DNA of 64,000 nt from a virus, in IMG/VR virus record IMGVR_UViG_3300027971_000039, positions 1 through 64,000 of that record; one strand, written 5' to 3'. This document shows positions 5,902 through 28,095 of the stretch, piece after piece. The notes under the pieces were generated by a model. It did no database searches. It was not told the DNA's origin and saw only the letters and a program-made list of their open reading frames with translations. The position numbers and the translations under genes were made by a program. Position 1 is the stretch's first letter; each line of letters begins with the position of its first letter.

Positions 5902-7011
5902 TCTAATGGATTATATTTTGGGTAATTTTGAACATTTAGAAGAATTAACACAACAATATCGTGAAAGAAAAAAACAATTAAAAGAAAAAGATCCTCTTTT
6001 TAAAGAAGAAATAGACGAACAGTACAAAGACCACATTAAATATCTTATCTGCTTAGAAATAAGTAGAGATATGGCTTGCTCTTATGAAGAAGCCGTTGTA
6101 TTATATGAAGAGATTGGATTAGGTGAATTGTTTGTATAAACTTTTAAATTTTATTTTAATAATTTGGGGAATAACATTGATTATTTTTATGATTGCAAGG
6201 GTGGTTTTGCGTGGAAAATAACGTTGTTTATGTTGTGGTTATTTCAGGTGAGTGGGGAGAAGACACCGGAATTCACTCTGTTTATTCATCTGAAACCGCT
6301 GCTGAAAAAGTAAGACAAGAAATTGAATCTAATTTATCGGAAGATATGATTGTTTATGTTGAATCACATGAACTCAATGATTGAATTAAATGAACTAACA
6401 CAACTTCGAATAAAAGCAAGCGCAAAATACACAGCAAGTAAAATTGAAAACAAAAATAGAAGAGAAGATTTTCTATTTGTTATAACAAATATCTTGAGTG
6501 TTTTAAAAACTTGTCAATTTGAAGAATCTTTTATCAGAGCCAAAAAAATGATTGTAAAACTTGAGGCACAATTAGATGATACGAGATGTCCTCAAAGTGA
6601 CCTATCTGCTTTCTTTAATCCTCGCTACAAATACGATCAACTTGCATTTGACTTAGCACGAGAAGCAATTGATAAAATTGAAATTAAATTTATCAAAGGC
6701 TACTCAGAATGAGTTTATATCGCTTCACTTGTTCTTATTGCGGAAAAAAATGGGAAATGACATTCAAATACAAAAACGTATTTTGTAATGACTGTAAAGA
6801 CAAGAACATTAAATGTGAAGAAATTAAAAAAGACAATTACTATGATTCAGAAAATGAATCTACTGAACAAGAAAACCAACATGACTATTGGAGAGACTAA
6901 TGTGTTTAATGTGCATTGAGATCCAAAAAGGATTAATTACACCAAATGAGTTTGCTAAAAAAATTGATATGGTTCTTAGAGAAGACCCAGGTCATGCGGA
7001 GGAATTGATAC

Positions 7012-7533
7012 GTGCCCTCACCAAAGCAGACGAAAAATACTTGGAAAAACTGGATAAATATTTACACGAACAACTTACTGAACAGCTCGTTGATATTTTT
7101 TCTATTAAGTAACAGCATAGCTTGCGGCCAACAATACGAACAAAACAATTTTAAAATCAACGCTGATTTTCAAAATTACGTTGATTTATTTGAAGAAAAA
7201 ATAAAACAAAAAGTCAAAATTGATATTGATTATAATAAATTAGAATACCCAATTGTTGGTGTTTGTATAACTTATACAAACGGCTACAAAGAAATACAAA
7301 TAGACAGTGACTCTTGGGTTGAATATGATGAAAATTATAGAGAAGAATTGATTTTTCATGAATTAGGGCATTGTGTTTTAGGCAGAGATCATGATAATTC
7401 TATTATAGAAGGTTACAGAGTACCAAAAAGTATAATGTACCCATACATTTTTGGTTATGCTTATAATAAATATAAAGTTTATTATTTAGAAGAACTTAAA
7501 AATGAAGAAACAGACTGGACAACATATTTTTAA
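7012..7533 (+). CDS. metzincin-type zinc metallopeptidase, possible lipoprotein
   Basis: HELGHCVLGRDH zinc motif and SIMYP Met-turn; IACG lipobox; the true start is probably downstream of 7012. Confidence 0.7.
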   Translation: MPSPKQTKNTWKNWINIYTNNLLNSSLIFFLLSNSIACGQQYEQNNFKINADFQNYVDLFEEKIKQKVKIDIDYNKLEYPIVGVCITYTNGYKEIQIDSDSWVEYDENYREELIFHELGHCVLGRDHDNSIIEGYRVPKSIMYPYIFGYAYNKYKVYYLEELKNEETDWTTYF

Positions 7534-11215: not shown

Positions 11216-11604
11216 TCTAGTTGCAAATATGGCAGTTGCCTGTAATTGCCCAGTAATTGTTTGTTGTTATTATTACGCAGAGTCATTGGGTTATATGCCA
11301 GAAGAAACAAAAAAACAAATAGATAATCTTATGAACTTCTATAAATATGATACCATTGAAGGTGTAGACTTTTTAAAGGAGTGGAAATGAAGGAAATATA
11401 TCTTGTTGTTAGATGTGACAAGTTTGGCCAAGATTATTTTGACATTCCAATCACAGCGCATTTTTCTATGCAAAGCGCAATGAATCAAGTAAATGAAAAG
11501 AAAGAAATGGATAAATTACTTTATATCAATAATTCAGAATATAAAGTCGTAAACATACCAGTCGTTGAATCATTAACAAATTTACAACAAAAACTAAACT
11601 TTGT

Positions 11605-11892
11605 ATGAAGAAAAAAGAATTTAGTTTTGAAACAAATGACGGAACTACTACAGTAGCAAGTCCTGAATATCGAATAGACCTTTATAGCAAACACGTACAA
11701 CAATCTTTAGTAGAACATCCAGATCATTATAACAAAGGTATTGAATGTTGGGATTACATTGTATCTCACAATATGGGATTCCTTGAAGGCAACATCATTA
11801 AGTACATCACAAGATATAAACTTAAAAATGGTAGGGCTGATCTCTTGAAAGCTAAAGAGTATCTTGATAAGCTATTGGAAGAAGTTAAATAA
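11605..11892 (+). CDS. DUF3310 protein (T7 gp1.7-like nucleotide kinase family)
   Basis: V.HP.HY..GIEC.D.I, F.EGNIIKY..RY..KNG..DL.KA..YL. Confidence 0.85.
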   Translation: MKKKEFSFETNDGTTTVASPEYRIDLYSKHVQQSLVEHPDHYNKGIECWDYIVSHNMGFLEGNIIKYITRYKLKNGRADLLKAKEYLDKLLEEVK

Positions 11893-11910
11893 AAGGAGTA
11901 TTAATAATAA

Positions 11911-12177
11911 ATGAAAAAAATTGTAAATGTTCAAGAAGTTGAAGGTGAAGGATTGGTTGGATTACTTGGTGAACGTGTTGAATTGTTTTGTATGAATTAC
12001 ATTTACACAGGCACACTAACTGGCGTAAATACCAATGATGTTCTTCTTGAAGACGCTGCTATTGTTTATGAGACAGGACCATTTGATGATCCTAAATATA
12101 AGGATGCGCAAAAAGTTGGTAATCTTTATGTAAGATCTAATTCTATTGAATCATATAGGAAGACAAATAAACGATGA
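11911..12177 (+). CDS. LSm/Sm-fold protein
   Basis: Sm1-like L..LLGERV.L....IYTGTLTGV....VLLEDA and Sm2-like GNLYVRSNSIESY; strong AAGGAG RBS. Confidence 0.6.
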   Translation: MKKIVNVQEVEGEGLVGLLGERVELFCMNYIYTGTLTGVNTNDVLLEDAAIVYETGPFDDPKYKDAQKVGNLYVRSNSIESYRKTNKR

Positions 12178-12479
12178 ATATTCGTAGTTTAAAACAAAAA
12201 TGGTCTTGGTCTGGGTCTGGGTTTAGGTCTAAGTCTGGATCTAAGTCTGGGTCTGGATCTGGATCTAGGTCTGGATCTGGATCTGGGCCTGGGTTTTGGT
12301 CTTTGTCTGAATCTAGGTCTGGGTTTTGGTCTTGGTCTAGGTCTACGTCTGGGTTTAGGTCTTGGTCTTGGTCTTCGTCTAAGATTAGGTCTTGGTCTTG
12401 GTAGGTTAATAACGATGAATATTCGTAGTTTAAAACAAAAATGGTCTTGGTCTGGGTCTGGGTTTAGGTCTAAGTCTGG
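12170..12479 (+). repeat. 69-bp exact direct repeat (12170-12238 and 12411-12479) plus TCTNNN hexamer array
   Basis: AACGATGAATATTCGTAG...AAGTCTGG occurs twice, 241 nt apart. Confidence 0.95.
12174..12404 (+). CDS. Ser-X (SG/SW/SR/SK) low-complexity peptide 1
   Basis: ATGA overlap with the LSm gene; built from TCT-NNN hexamers. Confidence 0.55.
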   Translation: MNIRSLKQKWSWSGSGFRSKSGSKSGSGSGSRSGSGSGPGFWSLSESRSGFWSWSRSTSGFRSWSWSSSKIRSWSW

Positions 12480-12519
12480 GTCTAAGTCTAGATCTAAGTC
12501 TGGGTTTATGTCTAGATAA
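12415..12519 (+). CDS. Ser-X low-complexity peptide 2 (34 aa, not in ORF track)
   Basis: Translates as MNIRSLKQKWSWSGSGFRSKSGSKSRSKSGFMSR; paralog of 12174-12404. Confidence 0.5.
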   Translation: MNIRSLKQKWSWSGSGFRSKSGSKSRSKSGFMSR

Positions 12520-12522
12520 GTT

Positions 12523-12690
12523 AATTGGGACGGCGTGGGAAGCTAGGGCTTGGGGCAGCAGCCAAGTGTAAACATCAGTTGAAACCCCTTGGAGACACGC
12601 AGTCACGTACTTAAGAGCGTTATGTACGAGCAACAATAAGACACTCCTTATTGTTTGGCAGGAGTCGCGCCCTGCTCCCAATTTTATCCA
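12523..12690 (+). ncRNA. tRNA-like structured RNA, copy 1
   Basis: AATTGGGA/TCCCAATT closing stem, GCGTG/CACGC stem, GCAGG/CCTGC T-arm-like hairpin, inserted hairpins, downstream TCCA. Confidence 0.65.
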
Positions 12691-12717
12691 ATATGTTAAA
12701 GAAAGGTTAAGTGAGTT

Positions 12718-12900
12718 AATTGGGACGGCGTGGGAAGCTGTGAGGGGGTTGAGCGTAATGGCTCGGATACCGCGAAAGTGGAGTGTTACTCACTAGAGAC
12801 ACGCAAGACACAGAAGCTGCATTGAATGTACTGTTGAAATACCCACGTTAGGGGCTGCTCAATGCTGGCAGGGGTCGCACCCTGCTCCCAATTTTATCCA
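12718..12900 (+). ncRNA. tRNA-like structured RNA, copy 2
   Basis: Same three conserved blocks as copy 1 with different inserted hairpins. Confidence 0.65.
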
Positions 12901-12939
12901 ATATGTTAAAGAAAGTTTAACTTACTGACTAGGAGTGTT

Positions 12940-13149
12940 ATGACATTACCAGATGAAAGAACTAGAGCAATCGTAAACGCTAGAAACTTTCTTTATGATT
13001 TAACCGATCCAAAGAAAACTCCTCGTGTACCCAAAATAGTTAGGGAAAGAGCGCGTCGTATTCTTAAACATTATCCTTGGAACTTGCATTTGGCGATTGC
13101 CGCTGCTGTTATGCCCGATGTGTGGGGTAAACCTGAAAATGGAAAATAA
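12940..13149 (+). CDS. BPSL0761-like small protein
   Basis: MT.PDERTRA....FL..L ... P..VR..A..IL.HYP pattern; AGGAG RBS. Confidence 0.55.
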   Translation: MTLPDERTRAIVNARNFLYDLTDPKKTPRVPKIVRERARRILKHYPWNLHLAIAAAVMPDVWGKPENGK

Positions 13150-13155
13150 CTAATA

Positions 13156-13234
13156 TGGCCCATATCTCCTTCGGCTTATATCCGATAGAAAGAGTAGCGG
13201 TGACACGTGGGTTCAAATCCCACTGCGCCGACCA
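13156..13234 (+). ncRNA. atypical tRNA-like element (UAU anticodon-like loop)
   Basis: Canonical T arm GTGGG-TTCAAAT-CCCAC, 3' ACCA, TCGG-CTTATAT-CCGA hairpin; acceptor stem has one mismatch; no normal D arm. Confidence 0.55.
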
Positions 13235-13240
13235 TTAACT

Positions 13241-14218
13241 ATGAAAAGAAAACTTAAACCAATAAAACAAATCGACATGGCCTGGGGTAGCCCAGCTTTT
13301 CTTTCGCCATATTGGGAAATCAATAAGATCAATGTCGATCACGTAAAAAAGAAAAAAAGCTATTCAATCGGCTCCCGTGCAAAACTTCGGAATAGAATAA
13401 AAGGGTTACATAAAAAAATAGGAAACGCTGAAACAAAAAATAAACATATTGTTGTTGCAGCTGGTGCAACGCAAATTGTATTAGGATTGATGCACGTACT
13501 TCGAGAACAAAATCCGAAAATCAAATCAGCTTGGGCTAAACCACCACACTTCTCCAGATTTCCCAAACTAGCGGACTTTGCAAAGCTAGATTGGTTTAAT
13601 ACAGAAGTAGCTATTACAATCACCAGTAACCCAAACAATCCAGATAATAGTATCTCAGATGAAACAGGATCAACCATTCTGGATCTATGTTATAATTGGC
13701 CACAATATACAGATCAAGTTAAAAAGTATGATCACCCAGTAATGGTATTTTCTTTAAGTAAAGCAACTGGTCACGCAAGCACACGCATAGGCTGGGCTAT
13801 CCTAAAAGATAAAGAATTAGCAAAAGCACTGGAAACTTATATCGAAATAAGTACGGGTGGATTATCAATCGACGCGCAAATCCGTGCTGAAAAAGTAATT
13901 GAACACCAGTTATCCACAGATTATACAGTATTTGATTATGGAAAACATGTTTTAAATGAACGTTGGAAAATCATAAATAAATTAGTAGAAGAAAATAAAC
14001 TTTATTTTACAGTCATGAATTCATCTGGAATGTTTCTTTGGGCCAACGGACTGTGCCCGCCCCACATATCCAAGATAAAAGGATCGGATTTAAAAGCAAC
14101 TGATGAATTCTTTAGATTAAATGTTGGATGTGGGCAAGGTGATTTTGATAACTTCTTACAAACAATATGCAAAGGAATTGACACAAGCCACCTGTATAAG
14201 ATAAAAGTATATTACTAG
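13241..14218 (+). CDS. PLP-dependent enzyme of the alliinase/TAA1 (Alliinase_C) family
   Basis: IVVAAGATQ, PNNPD, DLCYNWPQYT, FSLSKATGHASTRIGWAILKDKELA (PLP Lys) and RLN match TAA1/alliinase motifs as recalled. Confidence 0.8.
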   Translation: MKRKLKPIKQIDMAWGSPAFLSPYWEINKINVDHVKKKKSYSIGSRAKLRNRIKGLHKKIGNAETKNKHIVVAAGATQIVLGLMHVLREQNPKIKSAWAKPPHFSRFPKLADFAKLDWFNTEVAITITSNPNNPDNSISDETGSTILDLCYNWPQYTDQVKKYDHPVMVFSLSKATGHASTRIGWAILKDKELAKALETYIEISTGGLSIDAQIRAEKVIEHQLSTDYTVFDYGKHVLNERWKIINKLVEENKLYFTVMNSSGMFLWANGLCPPHISKIKGSDLKATDEFFRLNVGCGQGDFDNFLQTICKGIDTSHLYKIKVYY

Positions 14219-14324
14219 CCAATGGTTACACCCAGGAACTTATGGTCAGCCCAAAGAGAAGGTCCCATTGGTGAAAGGTTGCAGGCGCGTGTACCTTGGT
14301 TGATAAAAAAACGGGCGCACATTC

Positions 14325-14354
14325 TTGACAGTGAATTAAATCATACTCTATAGT
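14325..14354 (+). promoter_or_regulatory. sigma70-like promoter
   Basis: TTGACA-N18-TATAGT in an intergenic position. Confidence 0.5.
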
Positions 14355-14358
14355 TTAA

Positions 14359-14796
14359 GTGATGCAGAAAACATATAAGTTGAAGCTCGCTCCACAAACT
14401 CTTAAATACCTCAAAAAAATCAAGCGCAAATACAAAGTTAAAGTTTCTGTTGGACCTATTCAAGACTTCTCTATAGATGAGTTCGGACTGGAATCTTCGC
14501 CCGGACTTTTTATTGTTTCCGAAGGAAAACCATACATTTACGTTAGCAACAGACAGCCATACAAGGCTGGTCATGATTATGTTGTTTTACATGAGATAGG
14601 ACACCTTTTATCCGACCGATACAAAATACAAAAAACGAAATACGCTCCGCAGGAGGAGGCGTATGCTAACGGTTTTGCTCTTGCAATTGCAACAGAGTTG
14701 AATTTACCATTAAATAAGTCGATTTTACAAGAGATGGGAGAATACTCTCATTCATTTTTTAAAAGAAATATATCTAGCCGGAAACATAATAAATGA
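14359..14796 (+). CDS. ImmA/IrrE-like metallopeptidase
   Basis: HEIGH followed by EEAYANGFA. Confidence 0.7.
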   Translation: MMQKTYKLKLAPQTLKYLKKIKRKYKVKVSVGPIQDFSIDEFGLESSPGLFIVSEGKPYIYVSNRQPYKAGHDYVVLHEIGHLLSDRYKIQKTKYAPQEEAYANGFALAIATELNLPLNKSILQEMGEYSHSFFKRNISSRKHNK

Positions 14797-28019: not shown

Positions 28020-28095
28020 TGGGCAGTAGCTCAGTTGGTAGAGTGCGCCGCTGTTAACGGCGTGGTCGTAGGTTCGAACCCTACCTGCCCAGCCA
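28020..28095 (+). tRNA. tRNA-Asn(GTT)
   Basis: TGGGCAG/CTGCCCA acceptor, AGTTGGTA D loop, CGCCG-CTGTTAA-CGGCG anticodon arm, GTAGG-TTCGAAC-CCTAC T arm, G discriminator, encoded CCA. Confidence 0.97.

What the first reader, a model, noticed from the sequence alone, without database searches (positions are those of the whole stretch)
11911..13234. Candidate phage ribonucleoprotein system: LSm-fold protein, Ser-X peptides and three tRNA-like RNAs in one block
Seen: a co-oriented, tightly packed block of an Sm-fold ORF, a translationally coupled SG/SW/SR peptide (ATGA overlap), a duplicated second peptide, two tRNA-like structured RNAs starting immediately after its stop codon, a small ORF and a third tRNA-like element. 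Established: Sm/LSm/Hfq rings bind U-rich RNA, and Ser/Arg-rich low-complexity tracts occur in RNA-binding assemblies. Both RNA copies carry an identical AAUUUUAU near the 3' end. Inference: these parts may form a single RNP, for example tRNA decoys against anticodon nucleases, RNA repair/turnover adaptors (Y RNA-like) or translation control. I know of no described system with this composition.
Basis: partly seen in the sequence, partly recalled or inferred. Interest (0 to 1): 0.85.

Follow-up and report, generated by a model that had tools for sequence, protein, structure and literature searches.

The report
Phage Sm-like/Ser-X cassette with novel RNA
A freshwater phage carries a small movable cassette: an acidic, probably Sm-like protein, very basic serine-repeat peptides, and a previously unlisted structured RNA; the protein-peptide pair is widespread in phages, but the RNA joins it only in this phage group, and its function is untested.

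Summary
All seven features are at the stated coordinates. The 88-aa ORF (11911-12177) and the Ser-X peptides (12174-12404, 12415-12519) form a real, widespread two-gene phage module. 33 of 37 related viral loci and 13 of 20 judgeable MAG loci have such a peptide beside the gene. The serine codon of the repeat changes by lineage (TCT, TCG, TCA, AGC), so the hexamer array is coding.

The two ~180-nt elements (12519-12692, 12714-12902) are a genuine structured RNA family with strong covariation and no Rfam match. They are not tRNAs. In this phage group the RNA starts at the peptide stop codon, and protein, peptide and RNA travel together in three genomic contexts. The RNA is absent from 54 more distant module loci. 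It also occurs without the module, once in the same slot, and in other lineages beside a DUF6948 + Gly-X pair or an RRM protein.

The third "tRNA-like" element (13172-13231) is a sub-threshold tRNA remnant. It is absent from close relatives and is not part of the unit.

The single-RNP reading is therefore only partly supported. This scan found the protein-peptide pair before in at least nine other genomes. I found no paper or Rfam family describing it.

The parts
11911..12177 (+). Gene for an 88-aa acidic small protein of a large uncharacterised viral family, probably with an Sm-like small beta-barrel fold (unverified)
   Evidence: ORF. 37 viral homologous loci. More than 7,500 proteins at E<=1e-3 with no Pfam domain. 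547 clusters at 50% identity. Median pI 4.96. Pfam LSM is only 13.3 bits.
12174..12404 (+). Ser-X repeat peptide 1: 76 aa, a basic leader followed by (Ser-Gly/Arg/Trp/Lys)n, with its start overlapping the upstream stop codon (ATGA)
   Evidence: The leader and the alternating Ser are conserved across loci of 33-66% GC, while the Ser codon differs by lineage.
12415..12519 (+). Ser-X repeat peptide 2: 34 aa, a paralogue with the same 25-residue N-terminus
   Evidence: Direct repeat D2 is 91% identical. One metagenome contig joins 12169 to 12411 and so lacks peptide 1.
12519..12692 (+). Structured RNA, copy 1: invariant core with its own peripheral hairpins
   Evidence: Covariance model R1 gives 145.3 bits, E=7e-37. 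GC is 0.49 against about 0.37 for the genome. No Rfam match.
12714..12902 (+). Structured RNA, copy 2: 98.9% identical to the single copy in the relative L003
   Evidence: R1 gives 212.9 bits. Identity. Covariation.
12940..13149 (+). Neighbouring gene, not part of the cassette: 69-aa BPSL0761-family protein
   Evidence: NCBIfam NF041728, 62.7 bits against a cut-off of 35. It follows the RNA in the window, L003, L006, L049 and L053. Other genes follow the RNA in other lineages.
13172..13231 (+). Neighbour, not part of the cassette: degenerate tRNA remnant with an acceptor stem, an intact T arm and an ACCA tail, but no anticodon arm
   Evidence: Rfam tRNA 23.1 bits, below 29. No ARAGORN call. 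Absent in L003 together with the gene at 13241-14218. No exact match to its 3' half in viral or genome contigs.

Best explanation
The block is a mosaic, not one obligate machine.

**The core pair (shown).** Its core is a widespread accessory phage gene pair. The first gene encodes an acidic ~88-aa protein. Its stop codon overlaps the start of one or more strongly basic (pI about 12), rapidly diversifying peptides. Each peptide has a short conserved basic leader followed by serine alternating with glycine, arginine or tryptophan.

**How the pair works (inferred).** The two products are made together and act as a complex. The folded, probably ring-forming Sm-like protein holds or doses the disordered polycationic peptides. 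The peptides supply a nucleic-acid-binding (most likely RNA-binding) surface. This would do in trans what the Arg-Gly tails of eukaryotic Sm proteins do in cis.

**The RNA (shown).** In this freshwater phage group the pair carries at its 3' end a 150-230-nt structured RNA. The RNA has a closing helix, an invariant core and exchangeable peripheral hairpins, and its closing helix begins 3 nt after the peptide's stop codon. The three parts move together between genomic sites. The RNA family has its own wider distribution.

**What the RNA does (inferred).** It is most likely a cis-acting intercistronic or 3'-end element for transcript processing, protection or punctuation, and possibly a stable small RNA. 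It is probably not a required subunit of the protein pair.

**Neighbours.** The BPSL0761-family gene and the tRNA remnant are neighbours only.
For: **Linkage of protein and peptide**
- A period-6 array starts 4-112 nt after the homologue's stop codon in 31 of 37 viral loci and lies only upstream in 2 more. Three of the 4 remaining loci have under 65 nt of downstream sequence.
- All but one array lie within 700 nt of the gene.
- Ser-X ORFs are present in 33 of 37 loci. The 4-nt start/stop overlap occurs in 16 of them plus the window.
- In an independent set, 13 of 20 MAG loci with at least 400 nt downstream have such ORFs.

**The array is coding**
- The dominant Ser codon is TCT in 11 rows, TCG in 12, TCA in 3 and AGC in 5, out of 31 rows. 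Ser stays at every second position throughout.
- 705 of 795 X positions are Gly, Arg or Trp.
- Only this frame gives a conserved product.

**Fast evolution of the repeat**
- Window against L003: protein gene 96.3% identical, leader 96.7%, RNA 98.9%, repeat part 71.1%.
- L005 and L007 have identical protein genes, but their peptides are 118 and 84 aa.

**Opposite charge**
- Median pI is 4.96 for the protein and 12.0 for the peptides.

**The RNA is real**
- Viral set: 94.4% of cells paired, 15 pairs with changes on both sides, 0 of 500 shuffles as good.
- Separately fetched metagenome set (one locus duplicates a viral one): 93.1% paired, 15 such pairs, 0 of 500.

**The trio moves together**
- The RNA starts at the peptide stop in the window, L003, L004 (twice), L005, L006, L008, L106 and L137.
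- The cassette lies after the DUF3310 gene (window, L003), after the exonuclease gene (L043/L137, L046, L007, L051), or upstream of the reductase gene (L042) in related backbones.

**The RNA is independent of the pair**
- R1 finds none in 23 MAG module loci.
- There is only one stray approximate core match in 54 module loci, 323 kb.
- The RNA stands alone in L049 and L053 in the same slot, and beside other genes elsewhere.
Against: - No binding, expression or fold evidence was obtainable. The structure predictor and the complex predictor were closed.
- The Sm-like assignment is sub-threshold. Pfam LSM matched at E<=1 in 5 of 32 members and at E<=0.1 in 1 of 103. PDB profile searches gave no Sm protein.
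- The X codon is almost always NGG, and about 92% of Gly codons are GGG. A constraint at the nucleic-acid level therefore cannot be excluded.
- In three separate lineages the RNA abuts genes of RNA-binding type: this pair, DUF6948 + Gly-X, and an RRM protein. That fits a real RNP better than a mere cis element.
- All RNA loci outside the module set were found through an exact 17-nt seed, so the sampled distribution is biased toward near relatives.
Confidence: 0.5

Rival explanations
1. True three-part RNP. The Sm-like oligomer and the basic Ser-X peptides assemble on the structured RNA. The RNA's invariant core is the protein-binding platform, and its exchangeable hairpins are a cargo or specificity part.
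For: - In this phage group the RNA follows the peptide stop in every locus that reaches past the stop (window, L003, L004, L005, L006, L008, L106, L137).
- The trio keeps together at three genomic sites.
- In other lineages the same RNA abuts a DUF6948 + Gly-X repeat pair (L045/L140, L104) and an RRM_1 protein (L158, E=5e-21).
Against: - 54 other module loci lack the RNA, often with no room for it.
- The RNA stands without any such gene in L049, L053, L044/L152, L050/L139, L054, L082/L115, L092, L125 and L142. The five such viral records searched whole (L044, L050, L054, L049, L053) hold no homologue of either protein, but they are only 6-44% complete.
- The U-rich tail is not conserved.
- No binding test was possible.
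Confidence: 0.2
2. The RNA cores act chiefly as recombination joints or mobile regulatory cassettes. They flank accessory genes and mediate their shuffling between phages, much as the promoter/stem-loop cassettes of T4-type phages are said to do (recalled from my own knowledge). The RNA's neighbourhood with the Sm-like pair would then be a by-product.
For: - RNA copies flank cassettes. L050/L139 has RNA, a 71-aa ORF, then RNA. L004 has peptide, a 5' RNA core, protein, peptide, then RNA. The window has two tandem copies.
- The cassette is present or absent at two sites in related backbones.
- Diverse unrelated neighbours surround the RNA.
- In L106 a 17-aa duplicate of the exonuclease C-terminus lies just after the RNA.
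Against: - Compensatory base changes and G-U pairs on the coding strand show selection for an RNA fold, not only for sequence identity.
- No recombinase or endonuclease is associated with the element.
Confidence: 0.15
3. The hexamer arrays are not genes. They are a non-coding repeat (GG every six bases) in RNA or DNA that serves as a binding platform for the neighbouring protein, in the manner of TRAP or CsrA sponge RNAs (recalled).
For: - The X codon is nearly always NGG, and Gly is GGG in about 241 of 262 cases whatever the genome GC.
- The arrays are open in several frames.
Against: - The three bases between the GG pairs are always a serine codon (TCT, TCG, TCA or AGC) and never another triplet.
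- A conserved start and basic leader precede every array, and the start is coupled to the upstream stop.
- Other frames give products that differ by lineage, or contain stops.
Confidence: 0.05
4. A toxin/neutraliser or host-takeover pair. The polycationic Trp/Arg peptide harms the host by binding its ribosomes, RNA or membrane, and the acidic protein made just before it keeps it in check or delivers it.
For: - The gene order, the 4-nt overlap and the opposite charges resemble two-gene neutraliser systems.
- The pair is an accessory cassette present or absent among close relatives.
- The peptides diversify fast.
Against: There is no similarity to any PADLOC, Pfam or NCBIfam toxin family for the peptides beyond low-complexity noise. 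There is no experimental hint.
Confidence: 0.1

Closest known systems
Eukaryotic Sm/LSm proteins with basic dipeptide-repeat tails (SmD1, SmD3, SmB, LSm4; recalled from my own knowledge)
   Same: A small domain with Sm-like sequence signals is combined with a basic low-complexity dipeptide repeat, in an RNA-related setting.
   Different: - The repeat here is a separate, translationally coupled gene. None of 16 longer homologues read, out of 20 found, has a C-terminal fusion.
- The repeat is Ser-Gly/Arg/Trp, not Arg-Gly.
- The core is acidic.
- The Pfam LSM model is not met.
Bacterial Hfq with small RNAs, and Pfam Phage_Hfq (PF23874)
   Same: A small putative ring-forming RNA chaperone encoded next to a structured RNA. 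Phage_Hfq, LSM and Gemin7 are the nearest named clusters in the language-model search, with scores of 0.80-0.83, which count as leads only.
   Different: There is no significant sequence match to any of them. The RNA is not generally linked to the protein.
Phage DUF6948 protein + Gly-X repeat protein pair
   Same: The layout is the same: a small protein gene overlapped by a dipeptide-repeat ORF. In L045/L140 and L104 this pair sits directly after the same RNA family.
   Different: The protein family differs (PF22253). The repeat is Gly-Ser/Tyr/Asp, not basic Ser-X. The RNA lies upstream rather than downstream.
tRNA (Rfam RF00005) and tRNA-like processing signals
   Same: - In the two large RNAs a 7-bp closing helix stacks directly on a terminal hairpin, and four helical domains meet at a junction.
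- The third element keeps a canonical T arm and an ACCA end.
   Different: - The two large RNAs do not match the tRNA model at all.
- Their terminal loop is not a T loop, and they have no CCA end.
- The third element lacks an anticodon arm and scores below threshold.
Intercistronic processing or stabilising structures of phage early operons, such as the T7 RNase III sites, and the mobile promoter/stem-loop cassettes of T4-type phages (recalled)
   Same: A conserved structured element sits exactly at gene boundaries in the early/replication gene cluster and flanks accessory genes.
   Different: This element is much larger, with a multi-helix junction and an invariant single-stranded core. No processing has been shown.

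Membership tests
Sm/LSm/Hfq superfamily | Match to the Pfam LSM (PF01423) or a related model above its curated cut-off | tested here: not met
   - 13.3 bits against a cut-off of 23.4, E=0.069.
- 5 of 32 family members match at E<=1.
- 1 of 103 matches LSM and 1 of 103 matches LSM14 at E<=0.1.
- The search of the phage's own genome with PF01423 found nothing.
Sm/LSm/Hfq superfamily | Sm fold: an N-terminal helix plus a five-stranded bent beta-barrel | not testable with these tools
- PDB profile searches gave 0 hits and then 4 unrelated weak hits.
- The pattern of conserved hydrophobic residues is compatible with the fold. This is my inference.
Sm/LSm/Hfq superfamily | Homo-oligomeric ring and binding of U-rich or A-rich RNA | not testable with these tools
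No RNA run was listed.
Sm proteins with basic tails | Low-complexity basic repeat fused to the C-terminus of the domain | tested here: not met
   In 16 of 20 longer homologues that I read, the domain is always C-terminal and the extensions are N-terminal. The repeat is a separate ORF.
tRNA (RF00005), for the two large RNAs | Score at or above 29 bits with the tRNA covariance model, or an ARAGORN call | tested here: not met
   No Rfam hit of any kind over 12519-12902 at E<=10. ARAGORN finds only tRNA-Asn at 28020-28095.
tRNA (RF00005), for the third element | Score at or above 29 bits and a complete cloverleaf with an anticodon arm | tested here: not met
   23.1 bits. Only 8 nt stand where the 17-nt anticodon arm should be. 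No ARAGORN call.
Any described RNA family (Rfam 15) | Match at the gathering threshold | tested here: not met
   Nothing at the RNA positions in the window. Nothing in 8 diverse RNA-bearing loci, where only ordinary tRNAs elsewhere matched.
Ro/Y-RNA RNP | A TROVE (Ro60/Rsr) protein gene in the genome | tested here: not met
   PF05731 finds nothing in the 85.8-kb record, while the control rings in Deinococcus radiodurans.
BPSL0761 family (ORF 12940-13149) | NCBIfam NF041728 above its cut-off | tested here: met
   62.7 bits against a cut-off of 35, E=2.3e-17.

The most novel reading that the evidence does not exclude
The structured RNA is the cognate RNA of a family of phage ribonucleoproteins. 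One conserved RNA scaffold with swappable hairpins is paired, in different phages, with interchangeable small RNA-binding proteins that carry low-complexity repeat partners or tails: the Sm-like protein + Ser-X peptides here, DUF6948 + Gly-X, and an RRM protein. The cassette in this window would be one complete example.
Probability: 0.17. Interest if true: 0.88.

Novelty: new variant of a known kind. Interest (0 to 1): 0.62.

Why it matters
The protein-peptide pair belongs to a very large viral family: more than 7,500 proteins at the 90% cluster level and 547 clusters at 50% identity. It has no Pfam family, no name and no paper that I could find. If the small protein is an Sm-type ring that works with separately encoded dipeptide-repeat polycations, phages would have their own version of the pairing of a folded core with a disordered basic tail. 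That pairing is otherwise known from eukaryotic RNA processing.

The RNA is a new, well-supported structured RNA family of phages. Its invariant core and exchangeable hairpins invite a direct test of its function. The fact that protein, peptide and RNA move together in one phage group gives a concrete and cheap experimental entry point: co-expression, pull-down and end-mapping.

Tried and rejected

**Searches that gave nothing useful**
- Expression: no RNA holder was listed for 11600-13400. Only DNA contigs could be laid.
- PDB sequence-profile searches gave 0 hits, then 4 weak unrelated hits: thymidylate kinases, MnxF and CelE2.
- The ESM Atlas had no structural model for the window protein or for P0017.
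- The variable hairpins as antisense regulators: the longest complementarities to the phage's own 85.8-kb genome (11-12 nt) are no longer than those of shuffled sequences.
- Source of the tRNA remnant: no exact match to its 3' half in viral contigs or genome contigs.
- Ro/Y-RNA idea: no TROVE gene.
- The simple promoter/terminator scan gave nothing decisive for the RNAs. The hits inside the hexamer array are artefacts of the repeat.

**Ideas and hits rejected**
- The blastn hit to Synechococcus phage S-SCSM1 is a low-complexity match antisense to a giant virion gene. I dismissed it.
- I considered that the shared 5' core is a phage-polymerase promoter. The 21-mer occurs only at the two RNA starts in 64 kb, so it is not a general promoter.
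- C-terminal fusions of the Sm-like domain with the repeat: none among 16 read of 20 found.

**Literature**
- Three full-text searches listed no paper on such a phage pair. I saw only the search listings and abstract starts and read no paper. Supplementary files were not consulted.

**Not examined**
- Whether the GenBank phage MW202825 (L041), whose homologous ORF is unannotated, also has a Ser-X gene.
Full report
**Setting.** The window is the first 64 kb of an 85.8-kb IMG/VR virus record. Its GC content is about 36-37%. The best-covering DNA runs are labelled freshwater metagenomes. The finding lies in the plus-strand replication and nucleotide-metabolism cluster. That cluster holds a ribonucleotide reductase, a DUF3310 protein, a PD-(D/E)XK exonuclease, a DnaB-like helicase and a family B polymerase.

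**Observation.**
- An 88-aa ORF lies at 11911-12177.
- A 76-aa ORF lies at 12174-12404. Its ATG overlaps the upstream TGA.
- A 34-aa paralogue lies at 12415-12519.
- Two elements lie at 12519-12692 and 12714-12902. They have an identical 26-nt 5' end and an 87%-identical 68-nt 3' end, but different middles.
- A 69-aa ORF lies at 12940-13149.
- A tRNA-like stretch lies at 13172-13231.

Tandem Repeats Finder reports period-6 arrays over 12201-12402 and 12443-12517.

**The protein-peptide pair.** The search for related loci returned 37 viral loci with a homologue at 42-94% identity.
- A simple period-6 scan found an array starting 4-112 nt after the homologue's stop in 31 of the 37 loci, and only upstream in 2 more (L034, L038).
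- Of the other four, L010, L013 and L036 have 47, 63 and 0 nt of downstream sequence. Only L019 has room (3,988 nt) and no array.
- Only one array in all loci, with an unrelated CGCCGC unit in L014, lies more than 700 nt from the gene.

The repeat unit is NGG followed by TCT, TCG, TCA or AGC, depending on the lineage. In the frame that begins at a start codon next to the upstream stop, every locus encodes a short basic leader followed by serine at every second position.
- In 31 rows (30 loci plus the window; L007, L012 and L020 were left out as duplicates of near-identical loci), the dominant serine codon is TCT in 11, TCG in 12, TCA in 3 and AGC in 5.
- 705 of 795 residues between serines are Gly (262), Arg (226) or Trp (217).
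- Four different triplets that are all serine codons, one of them from the other codon box, are hard to explain except by selection on the protein. The other frames give products that change with the lineage or contain stops.
- The start overlaps the upstream stop by 4 nt in 16 loci and the window.

An independent set of 23 loci came from MAG contigs of many phyla. Several lie on large Nitrospinota contigs, so they are probably prophages. In that set, Ser-X ORFs lie beside the gene in 13 of the 20 loci with at least 400 nt downstream. The seven without are six Nitrospinota loci (L064, L066, L067, L071, L072, L073) and L076.

The protein is acidic, with a median pI of 4.96 and a range of 4.54-6.54. 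The peptides have a median pI of 12.0 (n=40).

The repeat part evolves far faster than its surroundings.
- Window against L003: protein gene 96.3%, leader 96.7%, RNA 98.9%, repeat 71.1% nucleotide identity.
- L005 and L007 have identical protein genes, but their peptides are 118 and 84 aa.
- One metagenome contig joins 12169 to 12411, giving a form without peptide 1. This could be a real variant or an assembly collapse across the 107-nt direct repeat.

One observation remains open. The X codon is nearly always NGG, and about 241 of 262 Gly codons are GGG. This is expected if units interconvert among Gly, Trp and Arg by single changes at the first codon base. It also leaves room for a constraint at the RNA level.

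**Is the protein Sm-like?** I could not settle this.
- Pfam LSM matches at 13.3 bits, below the cut-off of 23.4. It matched at E<=1 in 5 of 32 members and at E<=0.1 in 1 of 103 diverse members. In that same scan LSM14 matched in 1 of 103 and DUF6897 in 14 of 103, best E 0.0047.
- Profile searches of PDB sequences gave no Sm protein.
- In the language-model search, the nearest named clusters for two family members were LSM (0.83), Gemin7 (0.80-0.81), Phage_Hfq (0.80) and DUF2642 (0.79). All are below the tool's 0.9 line and count only as leads.
- The structure predictor and the complex predictor were closed.
- The family is large and unannotated. More than 7,500 proteins match at E<=1e-3 with no Pfam domain among the 120 listed. 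There are 547 clusters at 50% identity.
- In 16 of 20 longer homologues that I read, the domain is C-terminal and there is no fused repeat tail.

I estimate a small beta-barrel of the Sm type at about 0.7-0.75, as inference.

**The two large RNAs.** Nothing in Rfam 15 matches them at E<=10. Nothing matches at gathering level in eight diverse loci either.

RNAalifold on six copies gave four supported features: a 7-bp closing helix, a 5-bp inner helix enclosing a branched 5' domain, a variable 3' domain, and a terminal hairpin that abuts the 3' strand of the closing helix. I built covariance model R1 from this alignment.

An exact scan for the 17-nt core in IMG/VR gave 14 loci, of which 12 have a full or partial model match. 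The other two are GC-rich chance matches inside genes. Of the 80 loci fetched, 12 have a model match.

Covariation is strong in both sets.
- Viral set: 94.4% of cells paired, 15 pairs with changes on both sides, 0 of 500 shuffles reaching the observed values.
- Metagenome set: 93.1% paired, 15 such pairs, 0 of 500 shuffles.
- Slid controls pair at only 35-53%.
- G-U pairs lie on the coding strand, so the fold belongs to the transcript.

These alignments were fitted to the model, which favours it. All loci were found through the exact core, so the core's invariance is partly by construction.

The RNAs are GC-rich (0.49-0.61) in an AT-rich genome. They are not tRNAs by any model. What they share with tRNA is only a four-domain junction and a helix-on-helix stack.

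**Is the RNA part of the system?** The evidence points both ways.

For a link:
- In every locus of this phage group that extends past the peptide, the model match begins at the peptide's stop codon. In the window the closing helix begins 3 nt later. This holds for the window, L003, L004 (twice, once as a 5' fragment), L005, L006, L008, L106 and L137.
- Synteny mapping against the window's proteins shows the trio at three positions in related backbones. It lies between the DUF3310 gene and the BPSL0761 gene (window, L003). It lies directly after the exonuclease gene (L043/L137, L046, L007, L051). It lies upstream of the reductase gene (L042). The corresponding sites are empty in the other genomes.
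- The three parts therefore move as one cassette.

Against a link:
- R1 finds no RNA in the other viral module loci or in the 23 MAG loci.
- A tolerant search for the core (up to 3 mismatches) in those 54 loci, 323 kb, gave a single hit. It is on the opposite strand and lacks the second motif. The same search recovered the RNA in all seven control loci.
- In 12 of the 19 more distant loci measured, the gap from the peptide to the next ORF is only 8-70 nt.
- L049 and L053 share the window's backbone and have the RNA directly after the DUF3310 gene and before the BPSL0761 gene, with no Sm-like gene or peptide.
- The RNA also lies between other genes elsewhere:
  - in front of a small membrane ORF and a DUF3310 gene (L044/L152);
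  - as two copies around a 71-aa ORF (L050/L139);
  - after a uracil-DNA glycosylase gene (L054);
  - beside unnamed ORFs (L082/L115, L092, L125, L142).

A suggestive pattern:
- In L045/L140 and L104 the RNA sits between an SSB gene and a DUF6948 gene (E=1.4e-18), which is overlapped by a Gly-X repeat ORF.
- In L158 it sits 111 nt upstream of an RRM_1 protein (E=5e-21).
- So three kinds of RNA-binding-type genes abut this RNA in different lineages. I did not test this statistically, and the sample is biased by the seed.

**The AAUUUUAU tract.** It is partly the 3' strand of the closing helix. Other lineages have non-U-rich sequence in its place.

**The third element and the neighbours.**
- The stretch 13172-13231 aligns to the tRNA model from end to end. 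It has a good T arm and an ACCA tail, but only 8 nt where the anticodon arm should be. It scores 23.1 bits against a threshold of 29.
- Contigs of relatives carry G instead of C at 13226. This turns a mismatch in the acceptor stem into a U-G pair.
- L003 goes directly from the BPSL0761 gene to the sequence that corresponds to window position 14222 onward. It lacks both this element and the alliinase-like gene at 13241-14218.
- L049 has the alliinase-like gene, with its ORF overlapping the end of the BPSL0761 gene. That leaves no room for the element.
- The element's 3' half has no exact match in viral or genome contigs.
- I read it as a decayed tRNA remnant specific to this lineage. It is not a component of the cassette.

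**How it most likely works.**

Shown:
- The pair is co-transcribed and its translation is coupled.
- The two products have opposite charge.
- The peptide is compositionally constrained but free in sequence, and it expands and contracts quickly.
- The cassette is accessory.

Inferred:
- The acidic folded protein binds and doses the polycationic peptides. The complex acts on nucleic acid, most plausibly RNA.
- In this phage group the RNA folds 3 nt behind the terminating ribosome. It probably protects or punctuates the 3' end of the peptide message, or it is released as a stable RNA.
- The RNP reading remains possible at about 0.2.

**Known or new.**
- Three full-text searches listed no paper on such a pair (I saw listings and abstract starts only).
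- The pair has no Pfam, PHROG or NCBIfam family.
- The RNA has no Rfam family.
- This scan met the protein-peptide pair before in at least nine other genomes. It once met the pair beside other tRNA-shaped RNAs that the earlier agent judged unrelated to it. Those are unchecked AI notes. My counts above are my own.
- New here: the RNA family with its covariation support, its independent distribution, and the co-mobility of the trio in one phage group.

Noticed in passing
window 13241-14218: A 325-aa alliinase-like PLP enzyme (Pfam Alliinase_C, E=1.1e-47) is encoded in a phage replication cluster. Homologues at 50-62% identity lie in the related contigs L049, L043/L137, L046, L051 and L007. It is absent from L003.
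   Followed up: partly
window 14222-14354: A segment conserved in L003 ends in the best sigma-70-like promoter match of the region (TTGACA, 18-nt spacer, TATAGT; 11 of 12). It lies just before the M78-like peptidase gene at 14359.
   Followed up: no
L045 6410-7095 (= L140) and L104 159-856: The same RNA family lies directly upstream of a DUF6948 gene, which is overlapped by a Gly-Ser/Tyr/Asp repeat ORF. This is a second kind of small protein + dipeptide-repeat pair next to this RNA.
   Followed up: partly
L158 171-791: The RNA lies 111 nt upstream of a 118-aa RRM_1 protein (E=5e-21) with a low-complexity tail. The contig also encodes what looks by eye like a papain-type peptidase, as in L050; I did not run it against Pfam.
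   Followed up: partly
L050 (minus strand) 6704-7333, = L139 1348-1977: Two diverged copies of the RNA flank a single 71-aa ORF with no family match.
   Followed up: no
L063 2045-3549: Up to seven tandem Ser-X ORFs, some overlapping, follow the Sm-like gene on a contig binned as Patescibacteria. L033 has four such ORFs and L039 has three.
   Followed up: no
window 12169/12411 (run X2): A 1,079-nt metagenome contig joins these two positions across the 107-nt direct repeat, giving a form without peptide 1. It may be a real variant or an assembly collapse.
   Followed up: no
L106 686-736: A 17-aa stretch identical to the C-terminus of the window's exonuclease lies just after the RNA of the cassette. 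This may be a footprint of the cassette's insertion behind the exonuclease gene.
   Followed up: no
proteins P0141, P0144, P0197: Some family members of 186-218 aa match the profile in two stretches, which suggests tandem duplication of the domain.
   Followed up: no
L041 3001-3173 (GenBank MW202825): The homologous ORF in this deposited phage genome has no annotated feature under it.
   Followed up: no
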